Shown: positions 6,040-48,721, numbered from the stretch's first letter. The stretch: 64,000 nt of DNA from Planctomycetota bacterium (GCA_016190145.1 JACPRD010000189.1:64-64063); one strand, 5' to 3'. Made by a program: numbers and translations. The notes: generated by a model from the letters alone, not told the origin.

Positions 6040-6369
6040 CTACCAGTTGCCCAGAGTGCGGTCGAAGTGCAGCCAGAGCACGCGCGAGTACTGCCGCAGG
6101 GCGGGGAAGAGGAGCGCGAGAAACCCGCCGGTGGCCGCGACGCAGTGCCAGTAGGCGACGCCCGCGTACAGGAGCCCGAGAAACACCGGCGTCCCGATCG
6201 CGAGCGTCATGCCGTAGCTGAAGTAAATGGCGCCCATGAAATACCCCGGCTCCGGGAAGTACCCGAATCCGCACTCCGGACACCGCGCGTGCATCCGGAA
6301 CAGCCCGGCGAACACCGCTCCCTTCAGGCACTGCGGGCAGCGCCGCCTCAGGATCGCCCCGAACCTCAT
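6040..6369 (-). CDS. DUF983 family membrane protein
   Basis: CPQC...CPEC zinc-ribbon pair followed by two TM helices, which is the typical DUF983 architecture. Its ATG directly abuts the rhodanese TAG. Confidence 0.75.
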   Translation of the reverse strand: MRFGAILRRRCPQCLKGAVFAGLFRMHARCPECGFGYFPEPGYFMGAIYFSYGMTLAIGTPVFLGLLYAGVAYWHCVAATGGFLALLFPALRQYSRVLWLHFDRTLGNW

Positions 6370-6723: not shown

Positions 6724-6747
6724 GATTCTCTCCTCAACGAATCTCCG

Positions 6748-11762: not shown

Positions 11763-11877
11763 GAGGGCTCCGCATTACAGCAGCTTGGGGATGCCCGGAC
11801 AAGGGGGGCGAGTACGGTTCTTTTGGCGCGAGCCGCCGGGGCTGCTACGCTTCCCCCCCCCTGCAACGGAGGCACCG

Positions 11878-22881: not shown

Positions 22882-22906
22882 GCCGCGCGCCCCGCCTTCC
22901 CTTGCT

Positions 22907-23044
22907 CTCGGAGTTTGACAAGAAATCGGCCCGGGATGCTCCATCGGCCGGCAAGTGGGTTCCCGGTTACCGGGATCTCACGCGCCAGCCGATTCCGCCC
23001 CCCGGTCCGACCGCACCGGAGATCGAATCTGTCTCACGCTCTCA
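22907..23044. repeat. dispersed structured repeat (same family as 26812..26930 and 27226..27349) between ECF sigma and kinase genes
   Basis: CGGAGTTTGACAAGAAATCGGCCCGGGATGCTCCATCGGCCGGC and GCCAGCCGATTCCGCCCCCCGGTC match the arms of the 26.8-27.3 kb elements. The terminal GATCGAATCTGTCTCACGCTCTCA matches 26772..26795. Confidence 0.6.
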
Positions 23045-36177: not shown

Positions 36178-36194
36178 TGGCGCGGCGCAGCCGC

Positions 36195-36292
36195 GCCCCC
36201 TTGAACTTTACCTTCCCCTTTACCTTTCCCTGCCGTTCGCGCTGGACGAAAGGCAGGGAAAGGCAAAGGGAGAAGGTAAAGTTCAAGGGGGC
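36195..36292. repeat. ~38-bp-stem hairpin between convergent genes (terminator-like, no U tract)
   Basis: GCCCCCTTGAACTTTACCTTCCCCTTTACCTTTCCCTGCC - 17-nt loop - GGCAGGGAAAGGCAAAGGGAGAAGGTAAAGTTCAAGGGGGC. Confidence 0.65.
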
Positions 36293-36443
36293 CGCTTCGC
36301 GGCCTGAGCGGAATTGGGTCATTCCCTTCCGACTTGTCTTGACCCGGACTGCGGCACCCCTCGACTCGCCCTGCGGGCTCGCTCAGGGTAAGCCGGGCCG
36401 GCGGAAGGCCTCAGCAGGTCCGAACGGACTTCCTCGGCCCGGC

Positions 36444-37676
36444 TTAGTGCCCCTTCACATAGGCCGGCCTCACCCGGTAATAAACCTCCAGCGTCAGCAC
36501 GTTGAGCGCCGTGGCCATGATGCGGCCGCCTTCCCAGCTCCAGCGGTCCACGGCCGGATCCCACGAACCCTCGAGGCAGCGGTCCTTCTTGTCCTTCGGC
36601 TTCCCGGCCTGCGCCGGCAATACCGCCCCCTTCATCGCCGCGTTCCACTGCGCCCAGGCACCGCCTTTCGGGCCGTCGGCGAGGAACATCGCCTCGGTGC
36701 CGTAGTACCAGTAGTAGTAGTCGATCTTGAGGGGCGCGTTTTTCGGCGGGTCGGAGAGGAGGGCCCGGGCTGCCCCCTGGATCCGGGGGCTCGTCGGCTT
36801 CTCCCCCGAGCCGATCCGGACCACCATGGCCGCCGCCGTCATGGTCTCGTGCCCGTCGAACTTCTCGTTCTTTCCCATCGCCATGACCTTCCCGGTGCCC
36901 TTGTTCGTATACCCGGTCAGGAAGGTCTTCTCGTCCGTCGCCGAATCCACCCACGCGATCGCGTCCGCGAACGGTTTCGGTTCGATTTCGATCTTCGCGG
37001 CGCGCGCGGCCATGAGCGCCGTCACGCCCCAGGCGGTCGCGGACGTGTCGCTGTCTCCGGATCGAGTCGAGTAGCGCCAGCCCGAGCCGGGATTCTGGCC
37101 GGCGAGGGCGAAGTCGAGGCCCGCGCGGGCGGCCTTCTCGAACACCGGGCTCGCCGTCATCGCGTAGAACTCCGCCACCGCCGCCTCGGCGACGAGGTGG
37201 TTGTACATGTAGTGGGTGCCGCGCGTCTTTCCGAAGCGGCCGTCGGCGTCCTGCGCCGCCATCATCCACTCCAGGCCTTTCTGCACCGTCCGCCCCCAGC
37301 ACATCATCCTGCCCGTGACCGGGTCGGCGTACTCGACCTTGTCGAGGTCGGTCTTGCCCGCTCCCGCGAACGCGAGCAGCACGATCGCCGTGATCCCCGC
37401 GTCGTGTTCGGCGTTGCCGGTTCCCGTGCAGGGCGCGTCCTCGGGGCAGAGTCCCGTGTACTCGACGCAGCGCCACGCGCCGTCCTCGGATTGGTGCCGC
37501 GCGAGCCACGTGAGCCCCGAGAGGACAGCCTCCTCCGTGCTCCCCTTGCCGGTGCTCCCTCCGCCGGCCATGAGCGCGGGCTTGTGATCCTTCATCCGCG
37601 CGTCGAACGGGCCCTCTTCCGCCAGCCCCACTCCGCCGGCCACCAGCACCAGTGCCCAGGTCACGATTCCCCGCAT
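36444..37676 (-). CDS. prenyltransferase/squalene oxidase repeat-containing secreted protein
   Basis: Last 410 codons of ORF 36444..39260. Signal peptide MRGIVTWALVLVAGGVGLA. Terpenoid-cyclase-type repeats QSEDGAW, QDADGRFG, QNPGSGWRY. Confidence 0.75.
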   Translation of the reverse strand: MRGIVTWALVLVAGGVGLAEEGPFDARMKDHKPALMAGGGSTGKGSTEEAVLSGLTWLARHQSEDGAWRCVEYTGLCPEDAPCTGTGNAEHDAGITAIVLLAFAGAGKTDLDKVEYADPVTGRMMCWGRTVQKGLEWMMAAQDADGRFGKTRGTHYMYNHLVAEAAVAEFYAMTASPVFEKAARAGLDFALAGQNPGSGWRYSTRSGDSDTSATAWGVTALMAARAAKIEIEPKPFADAIAWVDSATDEKTFLTGYTNKGTGKVMAMGKNEKFDGHETMTAAAMVVRIGSGEKPTSPRIQGAARALLSDPPKNAPLKIDYYYWYYGTEAMFLADGPKGGAWAQWNAAMKGAVLPAQAGKPKDKKDRCLEGSWDPAVDRWSWEGGRIMATALNVLTLEVYYRVRPAYVKGH

Positions 37677-37723
37677 GGCGTCTCTCCGCGTTGGGTCCCC
37701 CGCGGCGGGAATCTTAACACCCT

Positions 37724-38494
37724 TCAGCTCCGCCGGCTGTTGAGTTTCGCCAGCAGCCGGAGGATCTCGAGGTAGAGCCACACGAGCGTCACGAGCAGCC
37801 CGAACGCCCCGTACCACTCCATGAACTTTGGAGCGCCGTGCTCGGCGCCTCTCTCGATGAAGTCGAAGTCGAGGACGAGGTTGAGGGCCGCGATGATCAC
37901 GACGAAGACGCTGAAGCCGATGCCGATCAGGCCCGAGCCGTGGATGTAGGGGATGCGGACGCCGAAGAAGCCGAGAATGAAGGAAGTGAGGTAGAGGAGG
38001 CAGATGCCGCTCGTGGCGGCGAAGACGCCGAGGCGGAAGTTCTCCGTGACCTTGATGAGGCGGAACATGTAGGCGACGAGGAGGCCGAACAGCGTGCCGA
38101 AGGTCAGGACGACGGCCTGGAGCACGATGCCGGTCCCGGGCCAGCGGAGGTCGTAGACGGCGGAGATCGCGCCGAGGAAGAGGCCCTCGCAGGCGGCGTA
38201 GATCGGCGCGGTGATCGGGGCGAGTTCCCGTTTGAAGATGGTGATGAGGGCGACGACGAATCCGCCGATGGCGCCGAGGAGGACCCAGGGGACGACGGCC
38301 TGGAGGTTCTGGCTCGCCTGGGTTTTCTGCCAGGTGAAGACGGCGGTGGTGGCGGCGATGGCGAGGAGGATGGCGGTCTTCACGGCCGTGCCCTGCACCG
38401 ACATGGTGCGGGCGCCGGCGGCGGCGATGAAATTGGAGAAGGTCTTGTCGTTCAGGGCGGGGTTCGCGGTTCTCATGGAGGGAGATTGTCGCAA
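37724..38494 (-). CDS. Bax inhibitor-1/YccA-like family membrane protein
   Basis: Seven predicted hydrophobic helices and the family-typical C-terminal FDFIERGAE...EWYGAFGLLVTLVWLYLEILRLL. The start may be ATG 38476. Confidence 0.8.
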   Translation of the reverse strand: MRQSPSMRTANPALNDKTFSNFIAAAGARTMSVQGTAVKTAILLAIAATTAVFTWQKTQASQNLQAVVPWVLLGAIGGFVVALITIFKRELAPITAPIYAACEGLFLGAISAVYDLRWPGTGIVLQAVVLTFGTLFGLLVAYMFRLIKVTENFRLGVFAATSGICLLYLTSFILGFFGVRIPYIHGSGLIGIGFSVFVVIIAALNLVLDFDFIERGAEHGAPKFMEWYGAFGLLVTLVWLYLEILRLLAKLNSRRS

Positions 38495-38562
38495 ATGCGG
38501 GACCGGAGCGCCCCGGGTATGCTGCCGGGGGGTCAGTTCGACCTCGTTGAGGGATCCGGCCT

Positions 38563-39756
38563 GTGAACATCCGCCCGCTTCTTCCGATTCTGCTCGCCGC
38601 GGCGACCGCCGCTGGAGATCCGGACCACCGCTGGCTCGTCCCCGAGGAGGTGATTTCCGCGAAAGGGGAGCGCGAGCCGATCCCCGTCGACGTGGCCCGG
38701 ACCCGGTCCGGAGCCACCGGAGTGTTCGTCTTCGAGAAGGACGCGGGACTTACCCTCCACGTGTCGAAGGACGGCAGACCGCCCTGGAAGGTCCTGATGC
38801 TGCCCCTCGGACTCCCCGGCGGGACGCGCACCGAGGAAGCGGTCGCGGAGACCCTGCTGACGGACATGGACGCGCGCACCGTGGCGTTCGCGCGGTTCGA
38901 CCTCGAGAAGGCCGAGGAACTCTCCCGCACCCCATTCCCCGGGAAAACCACCGGCACCCCGCTCTTCTCCCGCCTCGAAGCCGACGGCGCGACCCGCTCC
39001 GCCCTCGTCGTCTGCGAGGGCGGAGACGTGAACTTCTCTTCCAGCTCCGACGCCGGCGCTACCTGGACGGCTCCGACCCGGATCGCGCGGAACGCGCGCC
39101 ACGACGACTCGATCTGCCCGCCGCTGTACCGGACCTCGAGGGGCCTGAGCGTCCTGCACGTCGACGAGGCGGGCGCGCCGGCGGCCATCGAGAGCGCGGA
39201 CGGCGGGAAGACCTGGGCGACCTCGAGGTCGGCACCGGCGCTGGCGGAGAAGGACGGCAAGCCGATCCTCGTCGCGGGCGCGGCGGACGGCCGCGACCTT
39301 CACGCCGTATTCCTCACGTCGGAAGGCCGGTACGTGCACGTCCTCTCCGGCGACGAGGGCGCGCACTGGCAGAACCCGGTCCTGCTCGCCGTCACGCGCC
39401 TCTGCGACACCGCGTGTTTCTTCGACCTCCGCGCCGCGCGCGGGACCGTGACGTTCGCCTGGAGCGAACCCGGCAAGGGAGACCGCCACGTCCGGCGCGC
39501 CCGGCTCCTGGTCAGCCGCAACGCGGGGAATTCGTGGGAAGAGTCGCCGATCGCCGGCGGCCTCGCGGCGGATTCGGGGTGGCCCGTGGTGCGGCTGACG
39601 CCTGAGGCGGGGGTCTTCGCTCTTCTCTCGGCGCGTCCGGAGGAGGGGAAGGGCGGCGGGAAGTTCGTGCTGCTCCGCGAGTCGCAGGGGATCGACGCGC
39701 CCGCGCCGGTCTGGCCCGCGGGGCGCAGGGTGCCGGAGTGGTGGAAGGGAGAGTAG
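38563..39756 (+). CDS. secreted BNR/sialidase-like repeat protein
   Basis: Signal peptide. Four SxDxGxTW-type BNR motifs (SSDAGATWT, SADGGKTWA, SGDEGAHWQ, SRNAGNSWE). GTG start. Confidence 0.65.
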   Translation: MNIRPLLPILLAAATAAGDPDHRWLVPEEVISAKGEREPIPVDVARTRSGATGVFVFEKDAGLTLHVSKDGRPPWKVLMLPLGLPGGTRTEEAVAETLLTDMDARTVAFARFDLEKAEELSRTPFPGKTTGTPLFSRLEADGATRSALVVCEGGDVNFSSSSDAGATWTAPTRIARNARHDDSICPPLYRTSRGLSVLHVDEAGAPAAIESADGGKTWATSRSAPALAEKDGKPILVAGAADGRDLHAVFLTSEGRYVHVLSGDEGAHWQNPVLLAVTRLCDTACFFDLRAARGTVTFAWSEPGKGDRHVRRARLLVSRNAGNSWEESPIAGGLAADSGWPVVRLTPEAGVFALLSARPEEGKGGGKFVLLRESQGIDAPAPVWPAGRRVPEWWKGE

Positions 39757-39766
39757 GGCGGTTCCA

Positions 39767-40609
39767 TCAGGGGAGATAGCGCCCCGCGATGAAATGCCGG
39801 AGGGACTCCGGCTTGTAGTTCTTGCTGTAGTACGTCCAGGTTGGCGGTGTTCCGGGCGGCTGCGACTTGTTACCGGTCATGCTCCACGTGTACCCGAGGT
39901 AGGCGCCGGCGGCGTCGACGTAGATCCTCATCCAGCCGCGCCCCGCCCCGCGCCACTCCGCGTACGCGCTTCCCGGCCCCAGCTCGCCCGCGAGAAACAT
40001 CCGGGTGTCCTGCGAGTGCGGCGACTTGCTCGAGTCGAAGACCAGCAGGTCGCGGAACCGGACGGTGGGGCCCTTCTTGGGGAACTTGTAGACAATGACC
40101 GGTCCCACGGAAGCGACGACCGCACAATGCCCGGTGGTCGCCGGGTAACCGGAATCAGGGTCGTCGACGTACCACCAGACCGCGACGTCCCCGGGAGCCA
40201 GGTCGGCGAGGTTCGTGATCCGCTCGAACGAAACGCCGTCCTCGATGAGCTGGTAGAAACTCTCGCTGGAGGGCCAGTCGTACCCGGTCTTCAGCTTCCA
40301 GGAGAAATCCGTCGTGCCCCAGCCGGTCTTGAGTGCGCGCGTCACGAGCTGGTTGCAGAGGGAGCGGTTTTCGGCGAAGGGGTTCCCGTCCTCCTTCCAG
40401 AGGACGAGGTGCTCGGAGGCGTAGTCGTTGAGCGTTTTCCCTGTCGAATTCACGGTGAGTCCCGCCAGCGTCTGGGCTCGGAGGTCTTCGGCGAGGGCGG
40501 ACAGGCGGGCGACGTGGGGTGGGGAAGCGGATTCCGCGCGGGCGGGCGGGTGTGGGGTGACGGCGAGGACCAGGGTGGCGGCGGCGGCGGCCGCGGGTGC
40601 GAAGCGCAT
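39767..40609 (-). CDS. secreted hypothetical protein, possible papain-like (NlpC/P60 or CHAP-like) fold
   Basis: Signal peptide. Candidate Cys (SLCNQLV) and His (GDVAVWW...TGHCAVV) are spaced as in the Cys-His amidase fold. The domain call is weak. Confidence 0.5.
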   Translation of the reverse strand: MRFAPAAAAAATLVLAVTPHPPARAESASPPHVARLSALAEDLRAQTLAGLTVNSTGKTLNDYASEHLVLWKEDGNPFAENRSLCNQLVTRALKTGWGTTDFSWKLKTGYDWPSSESFYQLIEDGVSFERITNLADLAPGDVAVWWYVDDPDSGYPATTGHCAVVASVGPVIVYKFPKKGPTVRFRDLLVFDSSKSPHSQDTRMFLAGELGPGSAYAEWRGAGRGWMRIYVDAAGAYLGYTWSMTGNKSQPPGTPPTWTYYSKNYKPESLRHFIAGRYLP

Positions 40610-40680
40610 GGGGCCTGCCTTCCTGCGGGGCGGGATCGGGTTCGGGTCTCCGGCCTGGGACTCAGGGTAACATGGCCAGC

Positions 40681-40710
40681 ATTAAAATTATAAAGCTTTA
40701 TCATTTTAAT
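40681..40710. promoter_or_regulatory. 30-bp AT-rich near-perfect palindrome in a divergent promoter region
   Basis: ATTAAAATTATAAAGCTTTATCATTTTAAT: 28 of 30 positions are self-complementary, centred on AAGCTT. It lies between the starts of 39767..40609 (-) and the FKBP gene (+). Confidence 0.5.
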
Positions 40711-40797
40711 GTCTGACCAACAGGCCTCCCCTCACTCGTTCGCGCCGCGGCGCGCCGACGCTATAGTGCCCCTTCATAACAATCAGGAGCACACTCC

Positions 40798-41151
40798 ATG
40801 GCCGATGAAAAAACCGTCACCACCCCCTCCGGTCTCCAGTACGAAGACCTCGTCGCAGGCACCGGCGCTTCCCCCACCCAGGGCAAGAGCGTGAAGGTGC
40901 ACTACACCGGCTGGCTCACCAACGGGACCAAATTCGACAGCTCGAAGGACCGGGGCGAGCCGTTCATCTTCCAGATCGGGCTCGGCCGCGTGATCAAGGG
41001 CTGGGACGAGGGCGTGGCGACGATGAAGGTCGGGGGCAAGCGCAAGCTGACGATTCCGCCGGGCCTCGGCTACGGCGCGCGCGGGGCGGGCGGGGTGATC
41101 CCCCCGAATGCGACGCTGGTGTTCGAGGTGGACCTGCTGGGCGTCGGGTAG
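40798..41151 (+). CDS. FKBP-type peptidyl-prolyl cis-trans isomerase
   Basis: 117 aa. [34 protein letters not shown]. Confidence 0.9.
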
Positions 41152-41187
41152 GAATCCGGCGGCCGCCGGGACGCGTAATTGACGGCG

Positions 41188-41781
41188 ATGACTCCCATGC
41201 CGATCCGACTGCTGGCCCTGACCGCGCTCGTGCTCGCCGGCTGCGACAAGCCCGGACCCGAGCCCGGCCCGAAAGGAGACCCCTCGATGCCCGCGAAGGA
41301 GCAGGTGGCGACGCTGTCGGGCGGCTGCTTCTGGGGAGTGGAGGAACTCGTCCGCGAAATTCCGGGCGTCCTCGCGACCGAGGTCGGCTACACCGGAGGC
41401 ACCGTCGAGAATCCGAAATACGCCGACGTCAAGACCGGCCGCTCCGGCCACGCCGAGGCGATCCAGATCCGCTTCGACGCCAACGTCCTCAGCTACGAAA
41501 CGCTCCTCCGGAATTTCTTCCGCCTGCACGACCCCACCACGCCCAACCGCCAGGGCAACGACCGCGGCACGCAGTACCGCTCGGCGATCTTCTATCACGA
41601 CGAGGAGCAGAAGCGGACGGCGGAGAAGGTGAAGGACGAGGTGAACCGGTCGGGGAAGTGGCCGGCGCCGGTCGTGACGGAGATCGTTCCCGCGAAGACG
41701 TTTTATCCTGCGGAGGACTATCACCAGGACTATCTGCAGAAGAATCCGGGAGGCTATACCTGCCACTATTGGCGGGATTGA
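41188..41781 (+). CDS. msrA: peptide-methionine (S)-S-oxide reductase, lipoprotein-type N-terminus
   Basis: GGCFWGVEE active site, GHAEAIQIRFD, YHQDYL. LVLAGC lipobox. The start could be TTG 41179 or ATG 41197. Confidence 0.9.
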   Translation: MTPMPIRLLALTALVLAGCDKPGPEPGPKGDPSMPAKEQVATLSGGCFWGVEELVREIPGVLATEVGYTGGTVENPKYADVKTGRSGHAEAIQIRFDANVLSYETLLRNFFRLHDPTTPNRQGNDRGTQYRSAIFYHDEEQKRTAEKVKDEVNRSGKWPAPVVTEIVPAKTFYPAEDYHQDYLQKNPGGYTCHYWRD

Positions 41782-41910: not shown

Positions 41911-42462
41911 TCAGGCCGGTCTGCCGTACACCAGCGCGTGAAGCGCCCTCATCGCATTCAGCGCGACGATCCCCCAGCTCGATTCGAAGCTCGGGTACTT
42001 CCAGGCCAGGACCACCCGCGGAAGCACCCGGACGCCGGCCCGCCGCGCCGCCGTGAGACCGGGCTTGATCTCGCGGTAGATCTCGGCGAGGTCCTGCACG
42101 AGGTCCCCCTCCTCGGGCTCCTCTCCATCCTCAGGTTCCCGCCTCGGGTCCAGCCAGACCCGGTAACGCCGCGCTCCCCCGAGCATCGCCTCCGCCACGT
42201 GCGTCACCCGCGCGCGGTCCCGGTCGGTCAGCACGAACGGGTTTTCCCACCGGTCCAGCTTTTCGTCCCAGCGCGTTTCAGGAAGCGCGCACGCGGCGAG
42301 ATAGAGCTGCGACAGGCACCAGAGCGCCGCCCCGCACCATTCCTCGGGCGGCGGCTGCGGGCCCGCGAACAGCTCGCAGAAGTTCCGGCCCGCGACAATG
42401 AAAGACGCCACCGCGGGGTTCCGGAGGAGGTTCGGCGCGCGTCGGCGCGGCTTCGCCTTCAC
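41911..42462 (-). CDS. DUF5063-like protein
   Basis: Last 183 codons of ORF 41911..43806. GTG start in a GTGA overlap with the upstream stop. GDLVQDLAEIYREIKPGL and SWGIVALNAMRALHALV resemble the DUF5063 family. Confidence 0.55.
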   Translation of the reverse strand: MKAKPRRRAPNLLRNPAVASFIVAGRNFCELFAGPQPPPEEWCGAALWCLSQLYLAACALPETRWDEKLDRWENPFVLTDRDRARVTHVAEAMLGGARRYRVWLDPRREPEDGEEPEEGDLVQDLAEIYREIKPGLTAARRAGVRVLPRVVLAWKYPSFESSWGIVALNAMRALHALVYGRPA

Positions 42463-43745
42463 TTGTTGTCCACGATCCTGTACCGCGTCGCCGGCATCGG
42501 CTTCGGCGTTTTCACCGTCTCGGGCGGCACCACGCCCGCGTCTTTCCACTCCTCGGCAAGCAGCTCCCCGCAGGACTTTCCGCCGCCCCTGTGCGTCTTC
42601 CCGTCGCATACCCCGGGCTTCGTCCGCCCGTCCCAGATCCGGCTGTTGAAGAAACACTCCACGCAGTCCGCGCTCGACTCGGCGATCTTCAGCCAGTCCG
42701 GCAGGAGATATCGCGCGAAATTCCAGGCGGGAATCGTGCCGACCGTCAGCCAACCCTTCTCGTTCTTCACGAACATCGTGTCCGGATTCGACTTCAGCAC
42801 CGTCGCGTCGTCGCCCTCGCACCCCTTCTCGATTGTGATGTCCCCGGCCTCGCACTTGTCCTCCACCACGGCTTCGGCGATGAAGAACTGCTCCTTCGTG
42901 TGCAGCCGGAGCAGCGCGTCCAGCTCCGCCACCCGGTTCTTCCAGTCGCCCAGCCGCCCCGCGTCCACGTCGCCCTGGAACGCCACCTTGATTGAGAGCG
43001 CCCGCCCGCGCGCCGCCATCTCCTTCACCACCTTCGCCTCCTCCGGCGTGAACGGCGCGAATTCCGGCGGAAGATCGTTCGGCCCCCGGTCCGTCACCGT
43101 GAACTTCACCTTCGGCGCCTTGCCCCCGGCCTTCCATTTCGGATTCGGAAACCTCACGCCCGGCACCTTCTCCGCGATCAGCTCCTTGCACGACTTCGTC
43201 GGCGCCGTCCCCTTGTGCGTGTCCTTTCCGCACAGCTTCCGCGGATCGCTTCCCATGATGCAGTCCGGACACTCCCACCCCTTCTGCGTGCTGTCGCGTT
43301 CGTCGAGCTGGCCGAAGACAGCATGGCCGAGCTCGTGCACGACGACGGTTCCCAGGGTCCAGGTCCGGCCGGGATGGCCGTCGGGATGCGCGACCATCTT
43401 GATCTTCCAGAGCGACGTCCCCCCCATCATCGCCAGCCCCATCGCCTCCACGTCCTTCAGCACCTCCCGGTCGAGGTGCCCCGCCGGAACGAAGATCCGC
43501 CCGCGCGTGGTCTTGTCCTCGAGAGTCACCTCCGCGAACCAGAACTGGCCCTCGGTGAGGTCGAAGAGCAGCTGTGAAGCGGTCTGCAGGCGCCCTTTCC
43601 ACTCGTCGAAGATCTTCCCGTCGACGTCGTCCTCGAATGACACGGAGAATTTCCAGGCCGTGGCCTCGGGCGGGGCGGCGGTGGTCTGGGCGCGGGCGGT
43701 GGCGGTGGCGGCGAGCAGGGCGGCGACGGCGAGGGCCTGGCGCAT
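42459..43745 (-). CDS. secreted CLCA-like zinc metalloprotease-domain protein with internal duplication
   Basis: Signal peptide MRQALAVAALLAATATARA. VVVHELGHAVFGQLDERD (HExxHxxxGxxDE type). A second homologous half lacks the HExxH. The CGKDTHKG..KSCKELIAE and CDGKTHRGGGKSCGELLAE motifs are repeated. Confidence 0.65.
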   Translation of the reverse strand: MRQALAVAALLAATATARAQTTAAPPEATAWKFSVSFEDDVDGKIFDEWKGRLQTASQLLFDLTEGQFWFAEVTLEDKTTRGRIFVPAGHLDREVLKDVEAMGLAMMGGTSLWKIKMVAHPDGHPGRTWTLGTVVVHELGHAVFGQLDERDSTQKGWECPDCIMGSDPRKLCGKDTHKGTAPTKSCKELIAEKVPGVRFPNPKWKAGGKAPKVKFTVTDRGPNDLPPEFAPFTPEEAKVVKEMAARGRALSIKVAFQGDVDAGRLGDWKNRVAELDALLRLHTKEQFFIAEAVVEDKCEAGDITIEKGCEGDDATVLKSNPDTMFVKNEKGWLTVGTIPAWNFARYLLPDWLKIAESSADCVECFFNSRIWDGRTKPGVCDGKTHRGGGKSCGELLAEEWKDAGVVPPETVKTPKPMPATRYRIVDNK

Positions 43746-43840: not shown

Positions 43841-45526
43841 CTAACCGAACCGCATCTTCCGCCTCGGCTTCCGCAGATAGAGGTGCGTCCAGCTCACCCG
43901 CGCGTCCCTGTCCGTCGGCGCGTATTGACGCACCGCGTCACCCCGCTGCCGCGACGTTGACGCCGCGGGCGGCTCCCGGACCGCCCTGTCCAGCTCGGCC
44001 GCCTCGAAATAGGGGCGCACCTGGCCGGCCTCCGCCAGCACGAACCAGTAGCCGCGGGGGGAGATTTCATGGAAGCGCGCGTCGACCTTCAGTGCGACCG
44101 CGGCCGGCGCCGCCGCAAGCGAGACGCCGCCGCGAAGCCCCTTCCAGCCCCCCTCCTCCCGCAGCGCTTCGGCCACCACGTCGCGTTTCGTCACCCAGTC
44201 GACGTCCTTGTAGAGCAGGTGGGGATCTTCCCGGAGCGCGTCCAGCACGTACCGCCATTTCGCCAGGATCTCCCCGGTTTCGCCGCGCGCGTCGCGGCCG
44301 AAGAACTTATCGGCTTCTCCGAGGTAGTACTCCTGGATCTCGAGGGCGGTCATGCGGTTTCCGTCCTCGAGCGGGATCGCGGCGGCCAGGCCGGGATCCG
44401 CGTTTACGAGGGACAGGGCCTGGACGGGGTCGCGGGGTGTGAGGTCGCGCAGGGGATGACCGGCCTCGATCATGTGGAGGACGAGGTCGGTGGTGCCGAG
44501 CTTGAGGACGGTGGCGAGGCGGCTCATGGAGCTGTCGCTGAAGAGCACCTGCAGGCGTTTGCGGCGGCGGAAGACGCTCCAGGGGGCGCGCACGAAGTTC
44601 TTGAGGTCGAAGACCGGCCGCAGTGTGTCGTCCCAGAAGACGCCGCTCGCGGCGCGGATCGCGGGACCTTTCTGCGAGAGTCCGATCCGGCCTGCCGCGG
44701 GTTCGACGCGGCCCGGCCCGGCGTAGACCGCGCGGGTGAGGAGGTGGGGGAGGAGCAGCCGGCGCGCGCGCCGGAGGATGCAGAGCCGCAGAAAAGCGGA
44801 GTACGCCCGGATCCAGGGGATCGTGAGGACGTAGGTGGCGTCCATGAACCGGACGAGGTTCTCCTCGCGGAGGGCGGCGCGGCTGAGGCGGAACAGGGCG
44901 CGGGCGGCGGCGGCGAAGGGGCGGCCGGCGAGGGGAATCTGGGCGAGGGAGGAACAGAGGAGGTAGGCGGCGGCGCCCGAGAGGAAAACCGCGGCCAGGG
45001 CCGCCTTGAGGGCGAATTCGACGATCCACAGGGGAATCCAGAAGAACGGGAAGGCGGCGGCGAGGAGAATCGCGCGCGCCGGCCCCGCCGGATCGTCGAC
45101 GTCGTAATTCTCATGCGACCCCCAGACGTTTCCCGCCGCGTCGGCCGAGGACTTTCCGAACACGAGCTCGCCGTCGTACCCGCGCAGCCTGAGGCGGCGC
45201 TCGGCCTCGGCGTGAATCGACAGCAGCAGCCGGTCCTGCGCGTGGTGGTACTTCGCCGCCTCGACGGGCCCGCGGCACTCCGGGGTCGCCATCTCCAGCA
45301 GCCCCGTCGAGAACCGGAGCGTCGGCGCCTCGTAGTGCAGCAGACCCCCGTTGGAGAGGAAGACGCCGCCCTTTGGGATCGCGGCGGGAAGCGACGGGAC
45401 CGCGTTGCGCACGGCGGTCTCGGCGACCTCGAAGATCTCCCGCGGCAGCGGGGCGGGGGAGCCCGGCTCGCGCGGGACGAAGAACAGGGCGTACTCGGTT
45501 TCCACGCCGATCAGGCGGTCGGACAT
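43841..45526 (-). CDS. Pup-ligase family (PafA/Dop-like) carboxylate-amine ligase with ~100-aa hydrophobic insertion
   Basis: IGVETEY, EMATPEC, WGSHENY, LLTRAVYAGPGRV, LKLGTTDLVLHMIEAG, DVDWVTKR. Hydrophobic insertion at about residues 150-260 (about 44744..45100). Confidence 0.8.
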   Translation of the reverse strand: MSDRLIGVETEYALFFVPREPGSPAPLPREIFEVAETAVRNAVPSLPAAIPKGGVFLSNGGLLHYEAPTLRFSTGLLEMATPECRGPVEAAKYHHAQDRLLLSIHAEAERRLRLRGYDGELVFGKSSADAAGNVWGSHENYDVDDPAGPARAILLAAAFPFFWIPLWIVEFALKAALAAVFLSGAAAYLLCSSLAQIPLAGRPFAAAARALFRLSRAALREENLVRFMDATYVLTIPWIRAYSAFLRLCILRRARRLLLPHLLTRAVYAGPGRVEPAAGRIGLSQKGPAIRAASGVFWDDTLRPVFDLKNFVRAPWSVFRRRKRLQVLFSDSSMSRLATVLKLGTTDLVLHMIEAGHPLRDLTPRDPVQALSLVNADPGLAAAIPLEDGNRMTALEIQEYYLGEADKFFGRDARGETGEILAKWRYVLDALREDPHLLYKDVDWVTKRDVVAEALREEGGWKGLRGGVSLAAAPAAVALKVDARFHEISPRGYWFVLAEAGQVRPYFEAAELDRAVREPPAASTSRQRGDAVRQYAPTDRDARVSWTHLYLRKPRRKMRFG

Positions 45527-45547
45527 CTCACGCCCCCAGGCGCCGAC

Positions 45548-45579
45548 AAAAAAAGCTCCACCCGGGAAGCGGATGGAGC
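45548..45579 (-). terminator. intrinsic terminator/attenuator between the small modifier gene and the ligase gene
   Basis: mRNA GCUCCAUCC-GCUUCCC-GGGUGGAGC followed by UUUUUUU. The stem is 9 bp with one G-U pair. Confidence 0.6.
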
Positions 45580-45599
45580 GGAGTCACCGGGACGACTTC

Positions 45600-45749
45600 C
45601 TACTCGCCGCCCCCGGGGACGGTGCTCGCCTTCACGTAGTCACCCGGACGCGTCTTCGCGTCCTTCACGATCGCCTTGAACGCCTCCGCCACCCTGTCCT
45701 TCGGCGGCGCGACGGGCGGCTTCACGGCCGCGGTCTTCGTCTCTTCCAT
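45600..45749 (-). CDS. small Pup/UBact-like protein ending in Gly-Gly-Gly-Glu
   Basis: 49 codons starting at the internal ATG of ORF 45600..45809: MEETKTAAVKPPVAPPKDRVAEAFKAIVKDAKTRPGDYVKASTVPGGGE. GC3-rich codons. SD AGGAAAGG lies 9 nt upstream. It sits directly upstream of the Pup-ligase homologue. Confidence 0.55.
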   Translation of the reverse strand: MEETKTAAVKPPVAPPKDRVAEAFKAIVKDAKTRPGDYVKASTVPGGGE

Positions 45750-45779
45750 GGTTCTCAACCTTTCCTGAGGAATGAGCGG

Positions 45780-45809
45780 ATTGTAGTCTGACGGGCGCCT
45801 GCAATTCAA
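45780..45809 (-). promoter_or_regulatory. sigma-70-like promoter for the small modifier gene
   Basis: TTGAAT - 18 nt - TACAAT on the minus strand, about 30 nt upstream of the ATG. It overlaps the end of the DUF72 gene. Confidence 0.4.
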
Positions 45810-47164: not shown

Positions 47165-48721
47165 CTACGATTTCGCGTCCCAGGCGCCCTTCGCCAGCGC
47201 CTCCGTCTCTTCCTGGATCGCCTCCATCCCGAAGAAGTGCTTCCGGATGACGCGCTCCCGGTCGATCCACCAGATGGAGCGCACCTTGTCGGCGATCCGT
47301 TCCACGAACTTGCACAGCATGAGCTGCTCTCCGCGGATTTCGGTGATCTGTTCGCCGTGGCATTCGATCGTCGTGGGCGCGAGCTCGGTCTGGGCCATCG
47401 CGAGGCGCTGGACGGTGCGTTTCGTGCCGGGGGTCTGAGGAAGGGTAGCGACGAACTCGTGGAGGCCGAAGCCCGGGACGAAGTCGTCGGGGAGTCCCCG
47501 CTTGTAGGGCCTGCCCTGCCACGTGCCGATGAAGCCGGTTTCGATTCGCCTGAGGGTGAAGAAGGGCTGGCCGAGTTCGGTCTGGACGCCGTCCTGCATG
47601 AAGTGGCAATTGGCGATCCTGTCGTTGTGGCCGAACACGACGACGGCGGCGGAGTCGTGCCATTTGCCATCGCCGCCCATGTAGTGGAGTTCGGTTTCGA
47701 GCATGGCTCCCTCGCCGGTGGGATTGACCATGTGGCATTCCCAGCCGGTGGCCTTGCCCTCGGCCCAGAGGGAATACCAGCGGTGAATCTTTTTCCAGGG
47801 GCCGCGCTCGGCGAGTTCTTTCGAATATGGGCGTCCGAGGGGCGGAAACACGTGCTCCGGCCGTTTTGGAGCCTCCGGCGCGGCGGGCGGGGCGGCCGGC
47901 GCGGGCGGGGCGGTTGTGTTCACGAGGCGGGAGGGCGCCTGGACCGCCGCGGCGGCGGAGCCCGCCTGCCTGGAGGCCACGACCGGGTTTTTCGGAATCT
48001 CCACCATCAGCTTGGTGGGGTCGTCGAATCCCGCGATCGGCGTTCCGGCCGGCTTCGGCGGCGGCGGTTTCGGGAAGGGCAGCGTGATTTCCGTGCGCGC
48101 GGCGGCTTCCGATTCTTCGAGAAGCGCCGTCAGCCCGAATTCGTACTTCACGAGGTTCCGATCCCGGTCGATCCACCAGGTCGTGCGCGCCTTGCCCTGC
48201 ACGCGCTCGACGAATTTCCAGGCGCGGAAGATCTTGTTGAGGACTTTGACCTCTTCCTCTCCCATGCACTCGATCGTTGCAGGCGCTGGCGTGTCGGTGC
48301 CCATCGGGAGGCGCGTGAACCCCCAGAATCCGTGCATCTCCTGGGGAAGGGTGGCCACCCACTCGGCGAATCCGAAGTTGGGGAGGAAGTCGGGAGGGAG
48401 GTGTTTTGTGAAGGCTTTTCCGACCCAGTAGCCGCTGAAAGTTTCCCCGTCGCGGCGGATGGAGAAGCCCATGACGCCGTCTCTCTGGTAGCGGACAGCT
48501 TCGAGGCGCACGCCGCCGGTTCCGAAGGCCAGCGTGGAGACGCCTTCGGACAGGCCGGCATCGGTCCGGTAGACGGTCAGCGTTTCGATCGTGGCGCTGC
48601 CGTCGGAGACGGCCGAGACCACGTGGCGCTCGTATCCGGTGCGCTTGCCCTGGGGGTCCCAGAGCGAGAACCAGCGGACGCCGGACTTGAACGGAGCGCG
48701 TTTGGAGGTCGAAACGGGCAT
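47165..48721 (-). CDS. hypothetical protein made of two homologous ~200-aa halves joined by a Pro/Ala-rich linker
   Basis: The halves share VRWFSLWDPQGKRTGYERHVV / HRWYSLWAEGKATGWECHMV and WWIDRDRNLVKYEFG / WWIDRERVIRKHFFG. Confidence 0.65.
   Translation of the reverse strand: MPVSTSKRAPFKSGVRWFSLWDPQGKRTGYERHVVSAVSDGSATIETLTVYRTDAGLSEGVSTLAFGTGGVRLEAVRYQRDGVMGFSIRRDGETFSGYWVGKAFTKHLPPDFLPNFGFAEWVATLPQEMHGFWGFTRLPMGTDTPAPATIECMGEEEVKVLNKIFRAWKFVERVQGKARTTWWIDRDRNLVKYEFGLTALLEESEAAARTEITLPFPKPPPPKPAGTPIAGFDDPTKLMVEIPKNPVVASRQAGSAAAAVQAPSRLVNTTAPPAPAAPPAAPEAPKRPEHVFPPLGRPYSKELAERGPWKKIHRWYSLWAEGKATGWECHMVNPTGEGAMLETELHYMGGDGKWHDSAAVVVFGHNDRIANCHFMQDGVQTELGQPFFTLRRIETGFIGTWQGRPYKRGLPDDFVPGFGLHEFVATLPQTPGTKRTVQRLAMAQTELAPTTIECHGEQITEIRGEQLMLCKFVERIADKVRSIWWIDRERVIRKHFFGMEAIQEETEALAKGAWDAKS

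What the first reader, a model, noticed from the sequence alone, without database searches (positions are those of the whole stretch)
43841..45809. Pup/UBact-like modifier (C-terminal GGGE) with its own promoter and terminator, next to a PafA/Dop-family ligase carrying a large hydrophobic insertion; no proteasome genes nearby
Seen in sequence, small gene: the 49-codon ORF 45600..45749 encodes MEETKTAAVKPPVAPPKDRVAEAFKAIVKDAKTRPGDYVKASTVPGGGE. It has GC3-rich codons, a strong SD (AGGAAAGG) and a near-consensus promoter (TTGAAT-N18-TACAAT). A canonical intrinsic terminator (9-bp stem plus U7) separates it from the next gene. Seen in sequence, ligase: gene 43841..45526 carries the Pup-ligase family landmarks IGVETEY, EMATPEC, WGSHENY, LLTRxxYxGPGRV and LKLGTTDLVLHMIEAG. 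Established knowledge: Pup and UBact are small disordered proteins ending in G-G-Q/E or G-Q/E. PafA ligates their terminal Glu side chain to lysines, and a native Glu needs no Dop deamidation. The tail DYVKA....GGGE resembles the mycobacterial Pup tail DFVRAYVQKGGQ (from memory). Unusual features: (a) the modifier is short and basic, whereas Pup is acidic and UBact ends RQRTG[EQ] as I recall. (b) About 120 residues separate HENY from LLTR, versus roughly 20 in actinobacterial PafA as I recall. Most are hydrophobic helices (ILLAAAFPFFWIPLWIVEFALKAALAAVFLSGAAAYLL; YVLTIPWIRAYSAFLRLCIL), so the ligase is probably membrane-embedded. (c) There is only one ligase paralogue, and no prcA, prcB or mpa/arc ATPase anywhere in the 64-kb window. 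(d) The downstream same-strand genes encode a secreted CLCA-like metalloprotease-like protein and a DUF5063-like protein. Inference: this is a membrane-anchored, proteasome-independent pupylation-like tagging system. The promoter / small gene / terminator / enzyme layout would keep the modifier in excess over the enzyme.
Basis: partly seen in the sequence, partly recalled or inferred. Interest (0 to 1): 0.85.

Follow-up and report, generated by a model that had tools for sequence, protein, structure and literature searches.

The report
Membrane-anchored Pup-like tagging gene pair
A Planctomycetes genome carries a small protein ending in Gly-Gly-Glu next to a membrane-anchored relative of the mycobacterial Pup ligase; this proteasome-unlinked tagging pair is real and conserved, but it was already predicted from genomes in 2008 and has never been tested in the laboratory.

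Summary
Gene 43841..45526(-) is a Pup_ligase-family enzyme (PF03136, 242 bits; predicted fold matches Dop and PafA). It carries a ~110-residue hydrophobic helical insertion right after the HENY strand. Gene 45600..45749(-) encodes a 49-aa protein ending in VPGGGE.

The pair is conserved. 79 of 80 related loci from GTDB genomes have a small gene ending in G-G-E immediately upstream of an insertion-bearing ligase, even at ~30% ligase identity. These genomes are mostly Planctomycetota, with some Myxococcota, Acidobacteriota and Verrucomicrobiota. No third gene is conserved. No proteasome or Mpa gene lies in the 64-kb window or in any neighbourhood with Pfam annotation.

Iyer, Burroughs & Aravind (2008) described Pup ligases with a transmembrane insertion after core strand 4, unlinked to proteasome genes, in Rhodopirellula and Plesiocystis.

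What I add:
- The modifiers form a sharply defined family (L..VL..IR.DS...P..YLDET.VP.GGE, always Glu-terminal). Pfam and NCBIfam Pup models do not recognise it.
- The PafA/Dop catalytic Asp is an invariant Glu.
- The promoter/terminator layout and the basic charge are quirks of a narrow subclade.

Verdict: new member of a known, experimentally untested kind. Genome-wide absence of a proteasome is untested.

The parts
45780..45809 (-). Sigma-70-like promoter candidate TTGAAT-N18-TACAAT upstream of the modifier gene. The -35 overlaps the stop codon of the upstream DUF72 gene.
   Evidence: 9 of 12 matches, 0.1 expected in shuffles. A similar site (TTGATT-N17-TACAAT) is kept in the closest relative L090. 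It is absent in L001 and L004. L006 has a different, chance-level site upstream of its small gene (TTGTCC-N17-TACAAT; 0.6 expected by chance).
45759..45766 (-). Shine-Dalgarno-like AGGAAAGG, 9 nt upstream of the modifier ATG.
   Evidence: Read directly from the sequence.
45600..45749 (-). Modifier gene: 49-aa Pup-like protein MEETKTAAVKPPVAPPKDRVAEAFKAIVKDAKTRPGDYVKASTVPGGGE (stop codon included).
   Evidence: ORF confirmed. A syntenic small gene ending in GGE lies upstream of the ligase in 79 of 80 GTDB loci. 265 cluster representatives were found by exhaustive profile search, and 149 of the top 150 end in GGE or EGE. It matches no Pfam or NCBIfam model.
45603..45701 (-). Conserved C-terminal module of the modifier (residues 17-49): two helices (17-33, 35-40), then an extended tail ASTVPGGGE ending in the reactive Glu.
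   Evidence: Family consensus L..VL..IR.DS...P..YLDET.VP.GGE. AF2 model: H17-33, H35-40, tail 41-49, with pLDDT 82 in the helix and 64 overall. Against L090, residues 26-49 carry only synonymous changes, while all 5 amino-acid changes fall in residues 1-25.
45545..45579 (-). Intrinsic-terminator-like hairpin (10-bp stem, 5-nt loop, T7 tail) between the modifier and the ligase. Only 28 nt separate the T-run from the ligase ATG.
   Evidence: It is conserved in L090 (11-bp stem, T6) while the flanks diverge, and one stem position changes from G.U to G-C. It is absent in L001, L004 and L006.
43841..45526 (-). 561-aa PafA/Dop-family carboxylate-amine ligase (stop codon included).
   Evidence: PF03136, 241.9 bits. 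It scores below both NCBIfam equivalog cutoffs: PafA 177.9 against 551.3, Dop 153.8 against 492.3. PDB phmmer: Dop 6e-35, PafA 7e-24. AF2 pLDDT 90.8, pTM 0.90. Foldseek: Dop 4b0r TM 0.83 at 3.0 A, PafA 4bjr TM 0.75.
45494..45508 (-). GhExE Mg/ATP-binding motif (G7-V-E9-T-E11).
   Evidence: Invariant across the TM clade, PafA and Dop. It is a defining motif per Iyer 2008.
45329..45343 (-). Strand carrying E66 (LLHYE), in the alignment column of the PafA/Dop catalytic Asp.
   Evidence: MAFFT alignment A1 places E66 under PafA 'LYLD' and Dop 'LYVD'. E66 is invariant in 17 TM-clade enzymes. A regex check gave Glu at this position in most of the 80 loci.
45104..45118 (-). Core strand-4 motif S-H138-E-N140-Y ([HQ]x[NH]).
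   Evidence: Motif definition.
44762..45094 (-). Clade-specific insertion of ~110 residues (145-255) immediately after core strand 4, predicted as long helices projecting from the core.
   Evidence: Query residues 143->256 align to Dop 160->171. The insertion is present in all non-actinobacterial tiers and absent in PafA and Dop. The HENY-to-TR..G.G gap is 103-131 residues in the 73 of 80 related loci where both motif anchors matched. AF2 helices: 149-194, 202-218, 221-249.
44930..45079 (-). Hydrophobic block 150-199, a putative two-pass transmembrane hairpin with a turn at E171...K174.
   Evidence: The 19-residue Kyte-Doolittle mean is >=1.6 across ~150-197. The run is uncharged apart from E171 and K174. 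Equivalent uncharged runs of 38-51 residues occur in relatives.
44759..44929 (-). Arg-rich amphipathic return segment 200-256, predicted to lie on the cytoplasmic side (positive-inside rule).
   Evidence: The charge map shows 11 Arg and 4 acidic residues.
44534..44551 (-). Core strand-6 motif Q326-x4-D331 ([QH]x4D).
   Evidence: D331 is invariant. Motif definition.

Best explanation
This is a two-gene tagging cassette of the kind Iyer, Burroughs & Aravind predicted in 2008 for Rhodopirellula and Plesiocystis.

The upstream gene makes a small protein with three parts: a disordered, variable N-terminus; a conserved two-helix module; and an extended tail ending in Gly-Gly-Glu. The downstream gene makes a PafA/Dop-family carboxylate-amine ligase. 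A hydrophobic helical insertion emerges right after the HENY active-site strand and holds the enzyme on the cytoplasmic face of the inner membrane.

Proposed mechanism, inferred from PafA biochemistry:
1. The helical module of the modifier docks on the ligase.
2. The gamma-carboxylate of the terminal Glu is phosphorylated by ATP/Mg, bound by GhExE, H138/N140 and the conserved arginines.
3. The acyl-phosphate is attacked by an amine, most likely a lysine of a membrane or membrane-proximal protein. E66 acts as the general base in place of the PafA Asp.

The modifier is born with Glu, so no deamidase is needed and a single enzyme suffices.

The tag is probably not a proteasome signal. Its downstream meaning is unknown; it could be regulation, or hand-off to another AAA+ machine.

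In this genome and its closest relative, a terminator between the two genes probably keeps the modifier in excess over the ligase.

Shown here: family membership, fold, motifs, hydrophobic insertion, conserved gene pairing, invariant Glu terminus, absence of proteasome genes nearby.
Inferred: ligase rather than hydrolase activity, protein lysine as acceptor, membrane topology, and biological role.
For: Enzyme:
- PF03136 at 241.9 bits.
- Fold matches Dop and PafA (TM 0.75-0.83) with a confident model (pLDDT 90.8).
- All superfamily catalytic motifs are present and invariant: GhExE, the acidic strand-2 and strand-3 residues E66/E78/E83, H138xN140, Q326x4D331, R265/R303/R324.

Insertion:
- About 110 residues right after strand 4.
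- Hydrophobic in every clade member and absent in PafA and Dop.
- Uncharged 151-199 followed by an Arg-rich segment.

Pairing:
- A small gene ending in G-G-E sits directly upstream in 79 of 80 loci from at least 5 phyla, with ligase identity down to 28-35%.
- The gap is mostly -11 to +40 nt, which implies co-translation.
- No other gene is conserved.

Modifier:
- 149 of the top 150 profile hits end in GGE or EGE, and none ends in Gln.
- Bihelical plus tail model, matching the Pup architecture described.
- hhalign aligns 24 columns to both Pup helices in the correct register.

No proteasome, Mpa or PAC2 in the window or in the Pfam-annotated neighbourhoods.

Literature precedent: PMC2588565 and PMC7947786.

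Terminator and promoter are conserved in L090.
Against: There are no experimental data for any member of this clade; none was found in the searchable literature.

The modifier is not recognised by Pfam Pup, by any NCBIfam model, or by PDB Pup chains. Profile-profile similarity to Pup is not significant (probability 6.8%). 'Pup-like' therefore rests on architecture and context.

The enzyme scores far below both the PafA and Dop equivalog cutoffs. It is slightly closer to the hydrolase Dop in sequence and fold. Its residues at the PafA/Dop discriminating positions are a mosaic, and its alpha-loop matches neither (one search compared). Ligase activity is therefore inferred from logic, not from sequence.

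The catalytic Asp is replaced by Glu, with a longer following loop.

Membrane insertion is predicted from hydropathy only. The TM count is uncertain (2 by my estimate, 4 per Iyer et al.), and AF2 draws residues 149-194 as one continuous helix.

The rest of the genome was not available, so a proteasome elsewhere is not excluded.
Confidence: 0.65

Rival explanations
1. The acceptor is not a protein lysine but a membrane amine, for example phosphatidylethanolamine, ornithine lipids or a lipid-linked precursor. The cassette would then lipidate the small protein at the membrane, analogous to Atg8-PE conjugation.
For: The insertion leaves the core only ~5 residues after the active-site strand carrying H138/N140, so the catalytic cradle should sit close to the bilayer. 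No conserved protein partner or reader gene accompanies the pair. The GS/GCS superfamily routinely ligates small-molecule amines.
Against: All characterised PafA-family reactions use protein lysines (established knowledge). There is no lipid-handling gene in the neighbourhood. No coordinates were available to measure the distance between the active site and the membrane. This is pure inference.
Confidence: 0.1
2. The enzyme is mainly a Dop-like hydrolase (an eraser or processing enzyme), or a bidirectional enzyme. A ligase encoded elsewhere, or no ligation at all, accounts for any conjugation.
For: It lies closer to Dop than to PafA by phmmer (6e-35 against 7e-24) and by Foldseek (TM 0.83 at rmsd 3.0 against TM 0.75 at rmsd 8). 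It has Ser at Hecht position 46 and Pro at position 15, as in Dop.
Against: The modifier always ends in Glu, never Gln, so no deamidation is needed. The enzyme is single-copy next to the modifier in 74 loci, and Hecht 2020 found a single copy in Planctomycetes. A tagging system needs a ligase. The Dop-loop is absent. NCBIfam scores PafA above Dop. PafA itself can reverse the reaction (PMC5358908 abstract), so one enzyme could do both.
Confidence: 0.1
3. This is an ordinary detached pafA. The genome has a canonical pup/UBact-mpa-prcBA operon elsewhere, and this locus merely supplies its ligase.
For: Only one 64-kb contig of the MAG was available, so genome-wide absence of a proteasome is untested.
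Against: The enzyme is not a canonical PafA: it scores 178 bits against a 551-bit cutoff, carries a ~110-residue hydrophobic insertion, and has Glu in place of the catalytic Asp. It has its own dedicated modifier next door in 79 of 80 loci. None of the Pfam-annotated neighbourhoods contains proteasome genes. Iyer 2008 reports no proteasome linkage in Rhodopirellula or Plesiocystis.
Confidence: 0.05
4. The small gene is a RiPP-like precursor and the ligase makes an intramolecular Glu-Lys isopeptide (macrolactam), not a protein tag.
For: It is a small peptide gene directly upstream of an ATP-dependent amide-forming enzyme, and the window modifier has 7 lysines.
Against: 16 of 77 family members have no lysine at all. 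No protease, exporter or leader-recognition gene is conserved nearby. The conserved module looks like a docking helix plus tail, as in Pup.
Confidence: 0.03

Closest known systems
Transmembrane-insertion Pup ligases with adjacent Pup orthologues in Rhodopirellula baltica and Plesiocystis pacifica (in-silico description by Iyer, Burroughs & Aravind 2008, Biol Direct 3:45)
   Same: A PafA-family enzyme with a hydrophobic insertion immediately C-terminal to core strand 4. An adjacent small gene ending in G-E. No linkage to proteasome genes. The same phyla: the related loci here include many Pirellulaceae and Enhygromyxa (Nannocystaceae, kin of Plesiocystis). The same functional proposal, namely tagging of membrane-associated proteins.
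   Different: Iyer et al. count 4 TM segments; I can defend 2 for this protein, plus an Arg-rich amphipathic return. They report linkage to a membrane-protein gene; no such conserved neighbour is seen here. This subclade has a shorter (49 aa), basic modifier and a terminator between the genes. I could not compare directly with their sequences because the supplement is not held.
Actinobacterial Pup / PafA / Dop pupylation system (Mycobacterium, Corynebacterium)
   Same: The same enzyme superfamily and fold, the same catalytic motifs, a small disordered modifier with a two-helix docking region and a GG[E/Q] tail, and adjacent modifier and ligase genes. Corynebacterium also pupylates without a proteasome (established knowledge).
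   Different: One enzyme instead of the PafA plus Dop pair, lying outside both clades. A ~110-residue membrane insertion. Glu instead of the catalytic Asp, followed by an 11-residue loop. An alpha-loop unlike either enzyme. The modifier is never Gln-terminal and is not matched by PF05639 or by any NCBIfam model. No mpa/arc, prcAB or PAC2 nearby.
UBact systems of Nitrospirae, Verrucomicrobia and other Gram-negative phyla (Lehmann et al. 2017; features recalled from memory, the paper is not in the searchable library)
   Same: A Pup-like small modifier ending in Gly-Glu/Gln, next to PafA/Dop homologues, in Gram-negative phyla.
   Different: As I recall, UBact sits in an mpa-UBact-prcB-prcA-pafA/dop operon and ends in R-[TS]-G-[EQ]. 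Here there is no proteasome context, the tail is VP-x-G-G-E, and the ligase carries a membrane insertion.
GCS2/YbdK-type gamma-glutamyl-cysteine ligases
   Same: The same GS fold (Foldseek E 5e-6 to 1r8g and 1tt4). An acidic residue on strand 2 that is Glu rather than Asp would fit the ancestral state (inference).
   Different: These are small-molecule ligases of ~350 aa. They have no modifier partner, no C-terminal Pup-binding helical domain and no membrane insertion.

Membership tests
Pup-ligase/deamidase superfamily (Pfam PF03136) | Full-length match above the Pfam gathering threshold | tested here: met
   241.9 bits against 25, residues 4-549 on profile positions 1-440 of 441.
Pup-ligase/deamidase superfamily (Pfam PF03136) | Catalytic motifs of carboxylate-amine ligases as listed by Iyer 2008: GhExE on strand 1; acidic residues on strands 2 and 3; [HQ]x[NH] on strand 4; [QH]x4D on strand 6; two active-site arginines | tested here: met
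   G7VETE11; E66, E78, E83; H138-E-N140; Q326-VLFS-D331; R265, R303, R324. All are invariant or nearly so across the clade, PafA and Dop.
Pup-ligase/deamidase superfamily (Pfam PF03136) | GS-type beta-sheet cradle plus C-terminal helical domain (fold) | tested here: met
   AF2 pLDDT 90.8. Foldseek: Dop 4b0r TM 0.83 at rmsd 3.0; PafA 4bjr TM 0.75.
PafA (Pup--protein ligase, NCBIfam TIGR03686 equivalog) | Score above the equivalog cutoff | tested here: not met
   177.9 bits against a cutoff of 551.3, split into two stretches by the insertion.
PafA (Pup--protein ligase) | Catalytic Asp (Mtb D57) in the context L-D-V-G-S, and a PafA-type helical alpha-loop (H.WEG.SSATTRSRP) | tested here: not met
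   The column holds Glu (HYE66APTLRF...), followed by an 11-residue loop. The alpha-loop reads FWDDTLRP (one search compared with Table 1).
PafA (Pup--protein ligase) | ATP-dependent ligation of the modifier's C-terminal Glu to lysine | not testable with these tools
   This needs biochemistry. It is inferred from the Glu-terminal partner and the single-copy enzyme.
Dop (depupylase/deamidase, NCBIfam TIGR03688 equivalog) | Score above the equivalog cutoff, and presence of the ~37-40-residue Dop-loop | tested here: not met
   153.8 bits against 492.3. There is no Dop-loop: the TM clade has gaps where Dop has the loop in alignment A1.
Membrane-anchored Pup ligase class of Iyer et al. 2008 | Hydrophobic (TM) insertion immediately C-terminal to core strand 4 | tested here: met
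   The insertion spans residues 145-255, after SHENY 137-141. Hydropathy is >=1.6 over ~150-197. The segment count is 2 by my estimate against 4 published.
Membrane-anchored Pup ligase class of Iyer et al. 2008 | Adjacent Pup-like gene with a C-terminal G[EQ] | tested here: met
   Gene 45600..45749 ends in GGGE. The same arrangement holds in 79 of 80 related loci.
Membrane-anchored Pup ligase class of Iyer et al. 2008 | No linkage to proteasome subunit genes | tested here: met
   The window-wide Pfam survey is negative, and so are the Pfam-annotated neighbourhoods of relatives. Genome-wide absence was not tested.
Membrane-anchored Pup ligase class of Iyer et al. 2008 | [quoted passage not shown] | tested here: not met
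   No neighbour family is shared by more than 15 of 74 loci, and the top cluster consists of spurious ORFs. The window neighbours are DUF72 and a secreted 428-aa protein, neither of which is conserved beyond the close clade.
Membrane-anchored Pup ligase class of Iyer et al. 2008 | Actual membrane localisation with a cytoplasmic catalytic domain | not testable with these tools
   Only hydropathy and positive-inside reasoning are available. No dedicated TM predictor or experiment was possible.
Pup (Pfam PF05639 / NCBIfam Pup model) | Sequence match to the family model | tested here: not met
   0 of 57 partners match PF05639 at E<=10, while the control Mtb Pup scores 3e-22. There are no NCBIfam hits and no PDB Pup chain hits. 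The exhaustive HMMER search reaches no canonical Pup in its top 150.
Pup (Pfam PF05639 / NCBIfam Pup model) | Remote homology by profile-profile comparison | tested here: inconclusive
   hhalign of A7 against a Pup alignment gives P = 0.0053 and probability 6.8%, with 24 columns in the expected register. The Pup profile had low diversity (88% mean identity).
Pup (functional definition, Iyer 2008) | 50-90 aa; C-terminal G[EQ]; bihelical unit plus an extended 6-7-residue tail; gene adjacent to a PafA homologue | tested here: met
   The protein is 49 aa (family range 45-105). It ends in GGGE. The AF2 model has H17-33, H35-40 and tail 41-49, at modest confidence. The gene lies 73 nt upstream of the ligase.
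UBact | Location in an mpa-UBact-prcB-prcA operon with an R-[TS]-G-[EQ] terminus (features recalled from memory) | tested here: not met
   There are no proteasome or mpa genes in the window, and the terminus is VPGGGE. The UBact definition could not be checked against the original paper.

The most novel reading that the evidence does not exclude
The VP-x-GGE proteins and their insertion-bearing ligases form a third, independent branch of bacterial Pup-type tagging, alongside Pup and UBact. This branch would predate the PafA/Dop split, keeping the ancestral Glu at the catalytic position and a single bidirectional enzyme. It would work at the membrane without any proteasome, either marking membrane proteins for regulation or extraction, or attaching the modifier to amine lipids in an Atg8-like way.
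Probability: 0.15. Interest if true: 0.7.

Novelty: new member of a known kind. Interest (0 to 1): 0.4.

Why it matters
Pupylation is studied almost entirely as a proteasome-targeting signal in Actinobacteria. A recent major review does not mention the membrane-anchored variant at all.

This cassette is compact: two genes. It is also widespread. At least 234 species-level genomes matched in the GTDB scan, the best 80 of which were examined and are all non-actinobacterial, and 265 modifier clusters were found. The modifier needs no deamidation. That makes it an easy system in which to ask three questions:
- What does a Pup-type tag do when no proteasome is linked?
- How did PafA and Dop diverge from a single ancestor?
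- Can such a ligase act at a membrane?

A naturally membrane-tethered Pup-type ligase with an orthogonal tag could also be useful for proximity labelling (PUP-IT-like tools).

The current gap is practical as well. Neither Pfam nor NCBIfam has a model for the modifier, so every one of these genes is annotated 'hypothetical protein' or is not called at all.

Tried and rejected
- Pfam and NCBIfam scans of the window modifier and of 57 family members gave no Pup or UBact hit, even at E<=10.
- hhalign against Mtb Pup alone, and against a 16-sequence Pup alignment, was not significant.
- The modifier profile found nothing in PDB sequences.
- The exhaustive profile search expanded the family to 265 clusters but did not bridge to Pup.
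- Neighbour-gene clustering across 74 loci, looking for a conserved third component (reader, eraser, AAA+ or membrane partner), found none. The largest cluster consisted of spurious Arg/Pro-rich ORFs.
- I looked for the promoter/terminator layout in relatives. It is present only in L090.
- The supplementary alignment of Iyer et al. is not held as text, so I could not compare with their Rhodopirellula and Plesiocystis sequences.
- UBact details could not be retrieved from the library.
- The look-up of encoding contigs returned only a 10.9-kb Logan copy of the locus, not the rest of the MAG, so a genome-wide proteasome check was impossible.
- A ligase-modifier complex prediction was not attempted, because structure prediction accepts only single chains of window or database sequences.
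- The RiPP/macrocyclisation idea was rejected because 16 of 77 modifiers lack lysine.
- The 428-aa 'CLCA-like' protein and the DUF5063 neighbour were rejected as parts of the system. They are not syntenic even in the closest relative, and the 428-aa protein has no family assignment.

Full report
OBSERVATION

The window is a 68.6% GC contig of a Planctomycetes MAG. The ligase is 100% identical to an NCBI protein named 'proteasome accessory factor PafA2 family protein [Planctomycetes bacterium]' on a 64,103-bp contig.

The 561-aa product of 43841..45526(-) matches Pfam Pup_ligase PF03136 end to end (E 1.8e-71, 241.9 bits against a cutoff of 25). It falls far below the NCBIfam equivalog cutoffs for both PafA (177.9 against 551.3 bits) and Dop (153.8 against 492.3). 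In each case the match is split into two stretches.

The 49-aa product of 45600..45749(-) matches nothing in Pfam or NCBIfam.

- promoter-like TTGAAT-N18-TACAAT at 45809..45780 (9 of 12 matches; 0.1 expected by chance);
- the AGGAAAGG Shine-Dalgarno sequence at 45766..45759;
- a 10-bp-stem plus T7 hairpin at 45579..45555.

THE LIGASE

phmmer against PDB sequences finds Dop (4b0r/5lrt, E 6e-35) and PafA (4b0t/4bjr, E ~1e-23). Query residues 143->256 correspond to Dop 160->171, so there is a ~100-110-residue insertion directly after the HENY strand.

An AF2 model built on 38 homologues is confident (pLDDT 90.8, pTM 0.90). It draws the insertion as long helices (149-194, 202-218, 221-249) leaving the core. 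Foldseek returns Dop (TM 0.78-0.83, rmsd 3.0-3.5 A), then PafA (TM 0.71-0.75), then GCS2/YbdK.

All motifs that Iyer et al. list as defining the family are present and invariant:
- GhExE (G7-E11);
- the strand-2 and strand-3 acids (E66, E78, E83);
- [HQ]x[NH] (H138-N140);
- [QH]x4D (Q326-D331);
- the arginines (R265, R303, R324).

Two features set it apart from both PafA and Dop. First, the column of the catalytic Asp (PafA LYLD, Dop LYVD) holds an invariant Glu (E66), followed by an 11-residue loop instead of 4-5 residues. Second, at the discriminating positions defined by Hecht et al. 2020 the residues are a mosaic. Positions 13-15 read A-T-P, position 46 is Ser as in Dop, and the alpha-loop FWDDTLRP resembles neither enzyme.

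This agrees with Hecht et al., who found a single-copy PafA/Dop-related protein in Planctomycetes. It was 29-31% identical to both enzymes, and they used it to root the PafA/Dop tree.

THE INSERTION

A 19-residue Kyte-Doolittle window stays at >=1.6 across ~150-197. It does so in every member of the non-actinobacterial clade, and there is no comparable segment in the aligned region of PafA or Dop.

In this protein, residues 151-199 are uncharged apart from E171 and K174 in the middle. Residues 200-256 carry 11 Arg. The simplest topology is an in-out-in hairpin followed by a cytoplasmic amphipathic return.

Relatives have one uncharged run of 38-51 residues, and often a further hydrophobic helix of 15-21 residues. 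My count is therefore at least 2 passes, against the 4 reported by Iyer et al. No dedicated TM predictor was available, and AF2 draws 149-194 as one straight helix, so the exact topology remains open.

THE MODIFIER AND THE PAIRING

Every relative I could inspect has a small gene directly upstream of the ligase, and its product has a nearly invariant tail:
- close relatives at 61-89% ligase identity end in ...[DE]Y[VL]KA..VPGGGE;
- relatives at 31-35% end in ...YLD[QE]VHVP[GH]GGE;
- a third tier ends in ...FVQNWRLAGEGE.

A scan of GTDB species genomes with clade-specific patterns found 234 relatives. The best 80 are all non-actinobacterial. Most are Pirellulaceae, Planctomycetaceae and other Planctomycetota, including the complete genomes of Anatilimnocola sp. 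NA78 and Ca. Uabimicrobium amorphum. The rest include Enhygromyxa and other Myxococcota, Acidobacteriota/Thermoanaerobaculia, a Verrucomicrobiales MAG and a Vulcanimicrobiota MAG.

In the 73 of these 80 loci where both motif anchors matched, the HENY-to-TR..G.G spacing is 103-131 residues with strong hydrophobicity; the regex found no anchors in the other 7. Combining three passes, 79 of 80 loci carry an upstream small ORF ending in Glu, 77 of them in GGE. The gap to the ligase start is mostly -11 to +40 nt. Against this, only 78 of 14,776 ORFs in those loci end in GGE.

An exhaustive HMMER search of 1.84 billion representatives with the family profile found 265 clusters at E<=1e-3. Of the top 150, 149 end in GGE or EGE, none ends in Gln, and none is a canonical Pup. 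The consensus of the last 30 residues is L..VL..IR.DS...P..YLDET.VP.GGE, behind a variable, Pro/Ala/Glu-rich N-terminus.

The AF2 model of the window protein shows a disordered 1-16, helices 17-33 and 35-40, and an extended tail 41-49 (pLDDT 64 overall, 82 in the helix). This is the 'bihelical unit plus extended tail' that Iyer et al. describe for Pup.

Between the window and its closest relative, all five amino-acid changes fall in residues 1-25. The four DNA changes in residues 26-49 are all synonymous.

IS THE MODIFIER A PUP?

By architecture and context, yes. By sequence models, no.

NCBIfam and PDB sequences give nothing.

The best hhalign result against a low-diversity Pup alignment is P = 0.0053 with probability 6.8%. 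It does align 24 columns across both Pup helices in the correct tail-anchored register.

Iyer et al. report recovering the planctomycete proteins as Pup orthologues with PSI-BLAST and HMMER. I could neither reproduce nor refute that.

The family is acidic like Pup, with median net charge -4.

CONTEXT

A Pfam survey of 49 window ORFs (44 GC3-called genes, which cover 82% of the window, plus 5 extra ORFs from uncalled stretches) found no Proteasome, AAA/Mpa, PAC2, Pup or second Pup_ligase. The only AAA-type hit is AAA_16, inside a cyclase-TPR STAND protein.

None of the Pfam-annotated neighbourhoods of relatives contains proteasome genes.

Clustering all flanking ORFs across 74 loci found no third conserved gene and no second ligase within 4.5 kb. 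DUF72, NUDIX and the S41 peptidase upstream are local synteny of the close clade only. The 428-aa secreted protein and DUF5063 downstream are not syntenic even in the closest relative. The functional unit is therefore the two-gene cassette.

The terminator and promoter are conserved in the 89%-identical relative L090. There the hairpin stem is kept amid diverged flanks, and one stem position changes from G.U to G-C. Both are absent in more distant relatives, apart from one chance-level promoter-like match in L006, and in most loci the genes abut or overlap.

In the window only 28 nt separate the T-run from the ligase ATG.

WHAT IS KNOWN

I found no experimental work on it, and a 2021 review of pupylation does not mention it.

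MECHANISM AND RIVALS

The best-supported model has three steps. The modifier's helical module docks on the ligase. The terminal Glu gamma-carboxylate is phosphorylated by ATP. The acyl-phosphate is then transferred to a lysine of a membrane-proximal protein, with E66 as the base. No deamidase is needed, and no proteasome is involved (confidence 0.65).

The rivals are:
- a non-protein amine acceptor at the membrane (0.10);
- a mainly hydrolytic, Dop-like role (0.10);
- an ordinary detached pafA serving a proteasome operon elsewhere (0.05);
- a RiPP-type cyclase (0.03; 16 of 77 modifiers have no Lys).

VERDICT

The feature is real, conserved and correctly read, but already described in silico. 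This locus is a new member of that known kind. Its minor subclade peculiarities are a short basic modifier and an intergenic terminator.

The new information from this analysis is:
- the breadth of the clade;
- the sharp definition of the VP-x-GGE modifier family, and its invisibility to current annotation models;
- the invariant Asp-to-Glu replacement;
- the absence of any conserved third gene.

Interest is moderate (0.4). It is unsurprising to anyone who knows the 2008 paper, but the system is neglected, compact and experimentally tractable.

Noticed in passing
JGI metagenome 3300047160, 14,225-bp contig (no DNA held); genes at 3536-3727, 3727-5442, 5541-7244: Two tandem insertion-bearing ligase paralogues (P0017, 571 aa; P0019, 567 aa) follow a single 63-aa gene. 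This may be an independent ligase/eraser duplication inside the membrane-anchored clade. No second paralogue lies within 4.5 kb in 74 other loci.
   Followed up: partly
L084:814-3328 and L088:3826-5998: The reading frame that ends in the conserved ...VP[RK]GGE tail stays open for 0.7-0.8 kb or more upstream. The modifier module may be fused to a larger upstream protein in these genomes, or there may simply be no in-frame stop.
   Followed up: no
L056 (Acidobacteriota MAG), ligase ORF around 6001-7881: The ligase ORF is 849 aa with HENY near residue 354, which is about 210 residues of extra N-terminal sequence compared with the rest of the clade.
   Followed up: no
P0072, P0078, P0080, P0082, P0083, P0085; L008:1-234; L015: A distinct modifier subfamily has a conserved Cys pair and a different tail (...DTGICA[LM]CDVVNDLFVAPRAFVQNWRLAGEGE). 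It pairs with longer ligases (P0010/P0011, 642-675 aa) that carry an extra ~40-residue insert after DWV[TC]K and a C-terminal extension.
   Followed up: partly
window 19972-22944 (-) and 52799-55441 (-): Two large proteins each fuse a Ser/Thr protein kinase domain to an FGE-sulfatase (sulfatase-modifying-factor-like) domain.
   Followed up: no
window 11716-18213 (+): A 2165-aa ORF with good coding statistics (GC3 0.91) has no Pfam match at E<=1e-5.
   Followed up: no
window 29596-33087 (+): A 1163-aa signalling protein combines an adenylate/guanylate cyclase domain, an AAA_16 STAND NTPase and many TPR repeats. It is the only AAA-type hit in the window and is not an Mpa/ARC homologue.
   Followed up: partly
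window 42459-43745 (-): The 428-aa neighbour has a signal-peptide-like N-terminus, an HELGH zinc-protease motif and an apparent internal duplication. It has no Pfam or PDB sequence match, so the 'CLCA-like' label is unverified. It is not syntenic with the ligase in the closest relative.
   Followed up: partly
window 36174-37775: This is a stretch of ~1.5 kb without a confident gene call. The short ORFs there have atypical codon-position GC, and the 533-aa ORF on the + strand has no Pfam hit.
   Followed up: no
window 47165-48721 (-): The 518-aa protein looks like two tandem copies of one domain (W[FY]SLW...G..TG[YW]E.H.V recurs in both halves). Only a weak DUF3108 hit was found (E 0.022).
   Followed up: no
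window 37724-41781 and L001, L002, L004: BaxI_1, FKBP_C and a ~397-aa unknown protein lie within a few kb of the cassette in the window and in relatives at 64-65% identity. L001, L002 and L004 also carry an Oxidored_FMN gene there, while the window has MsrA. This is local synteny of the close clade and is not conserved in the wider family.
   Followed up: partly
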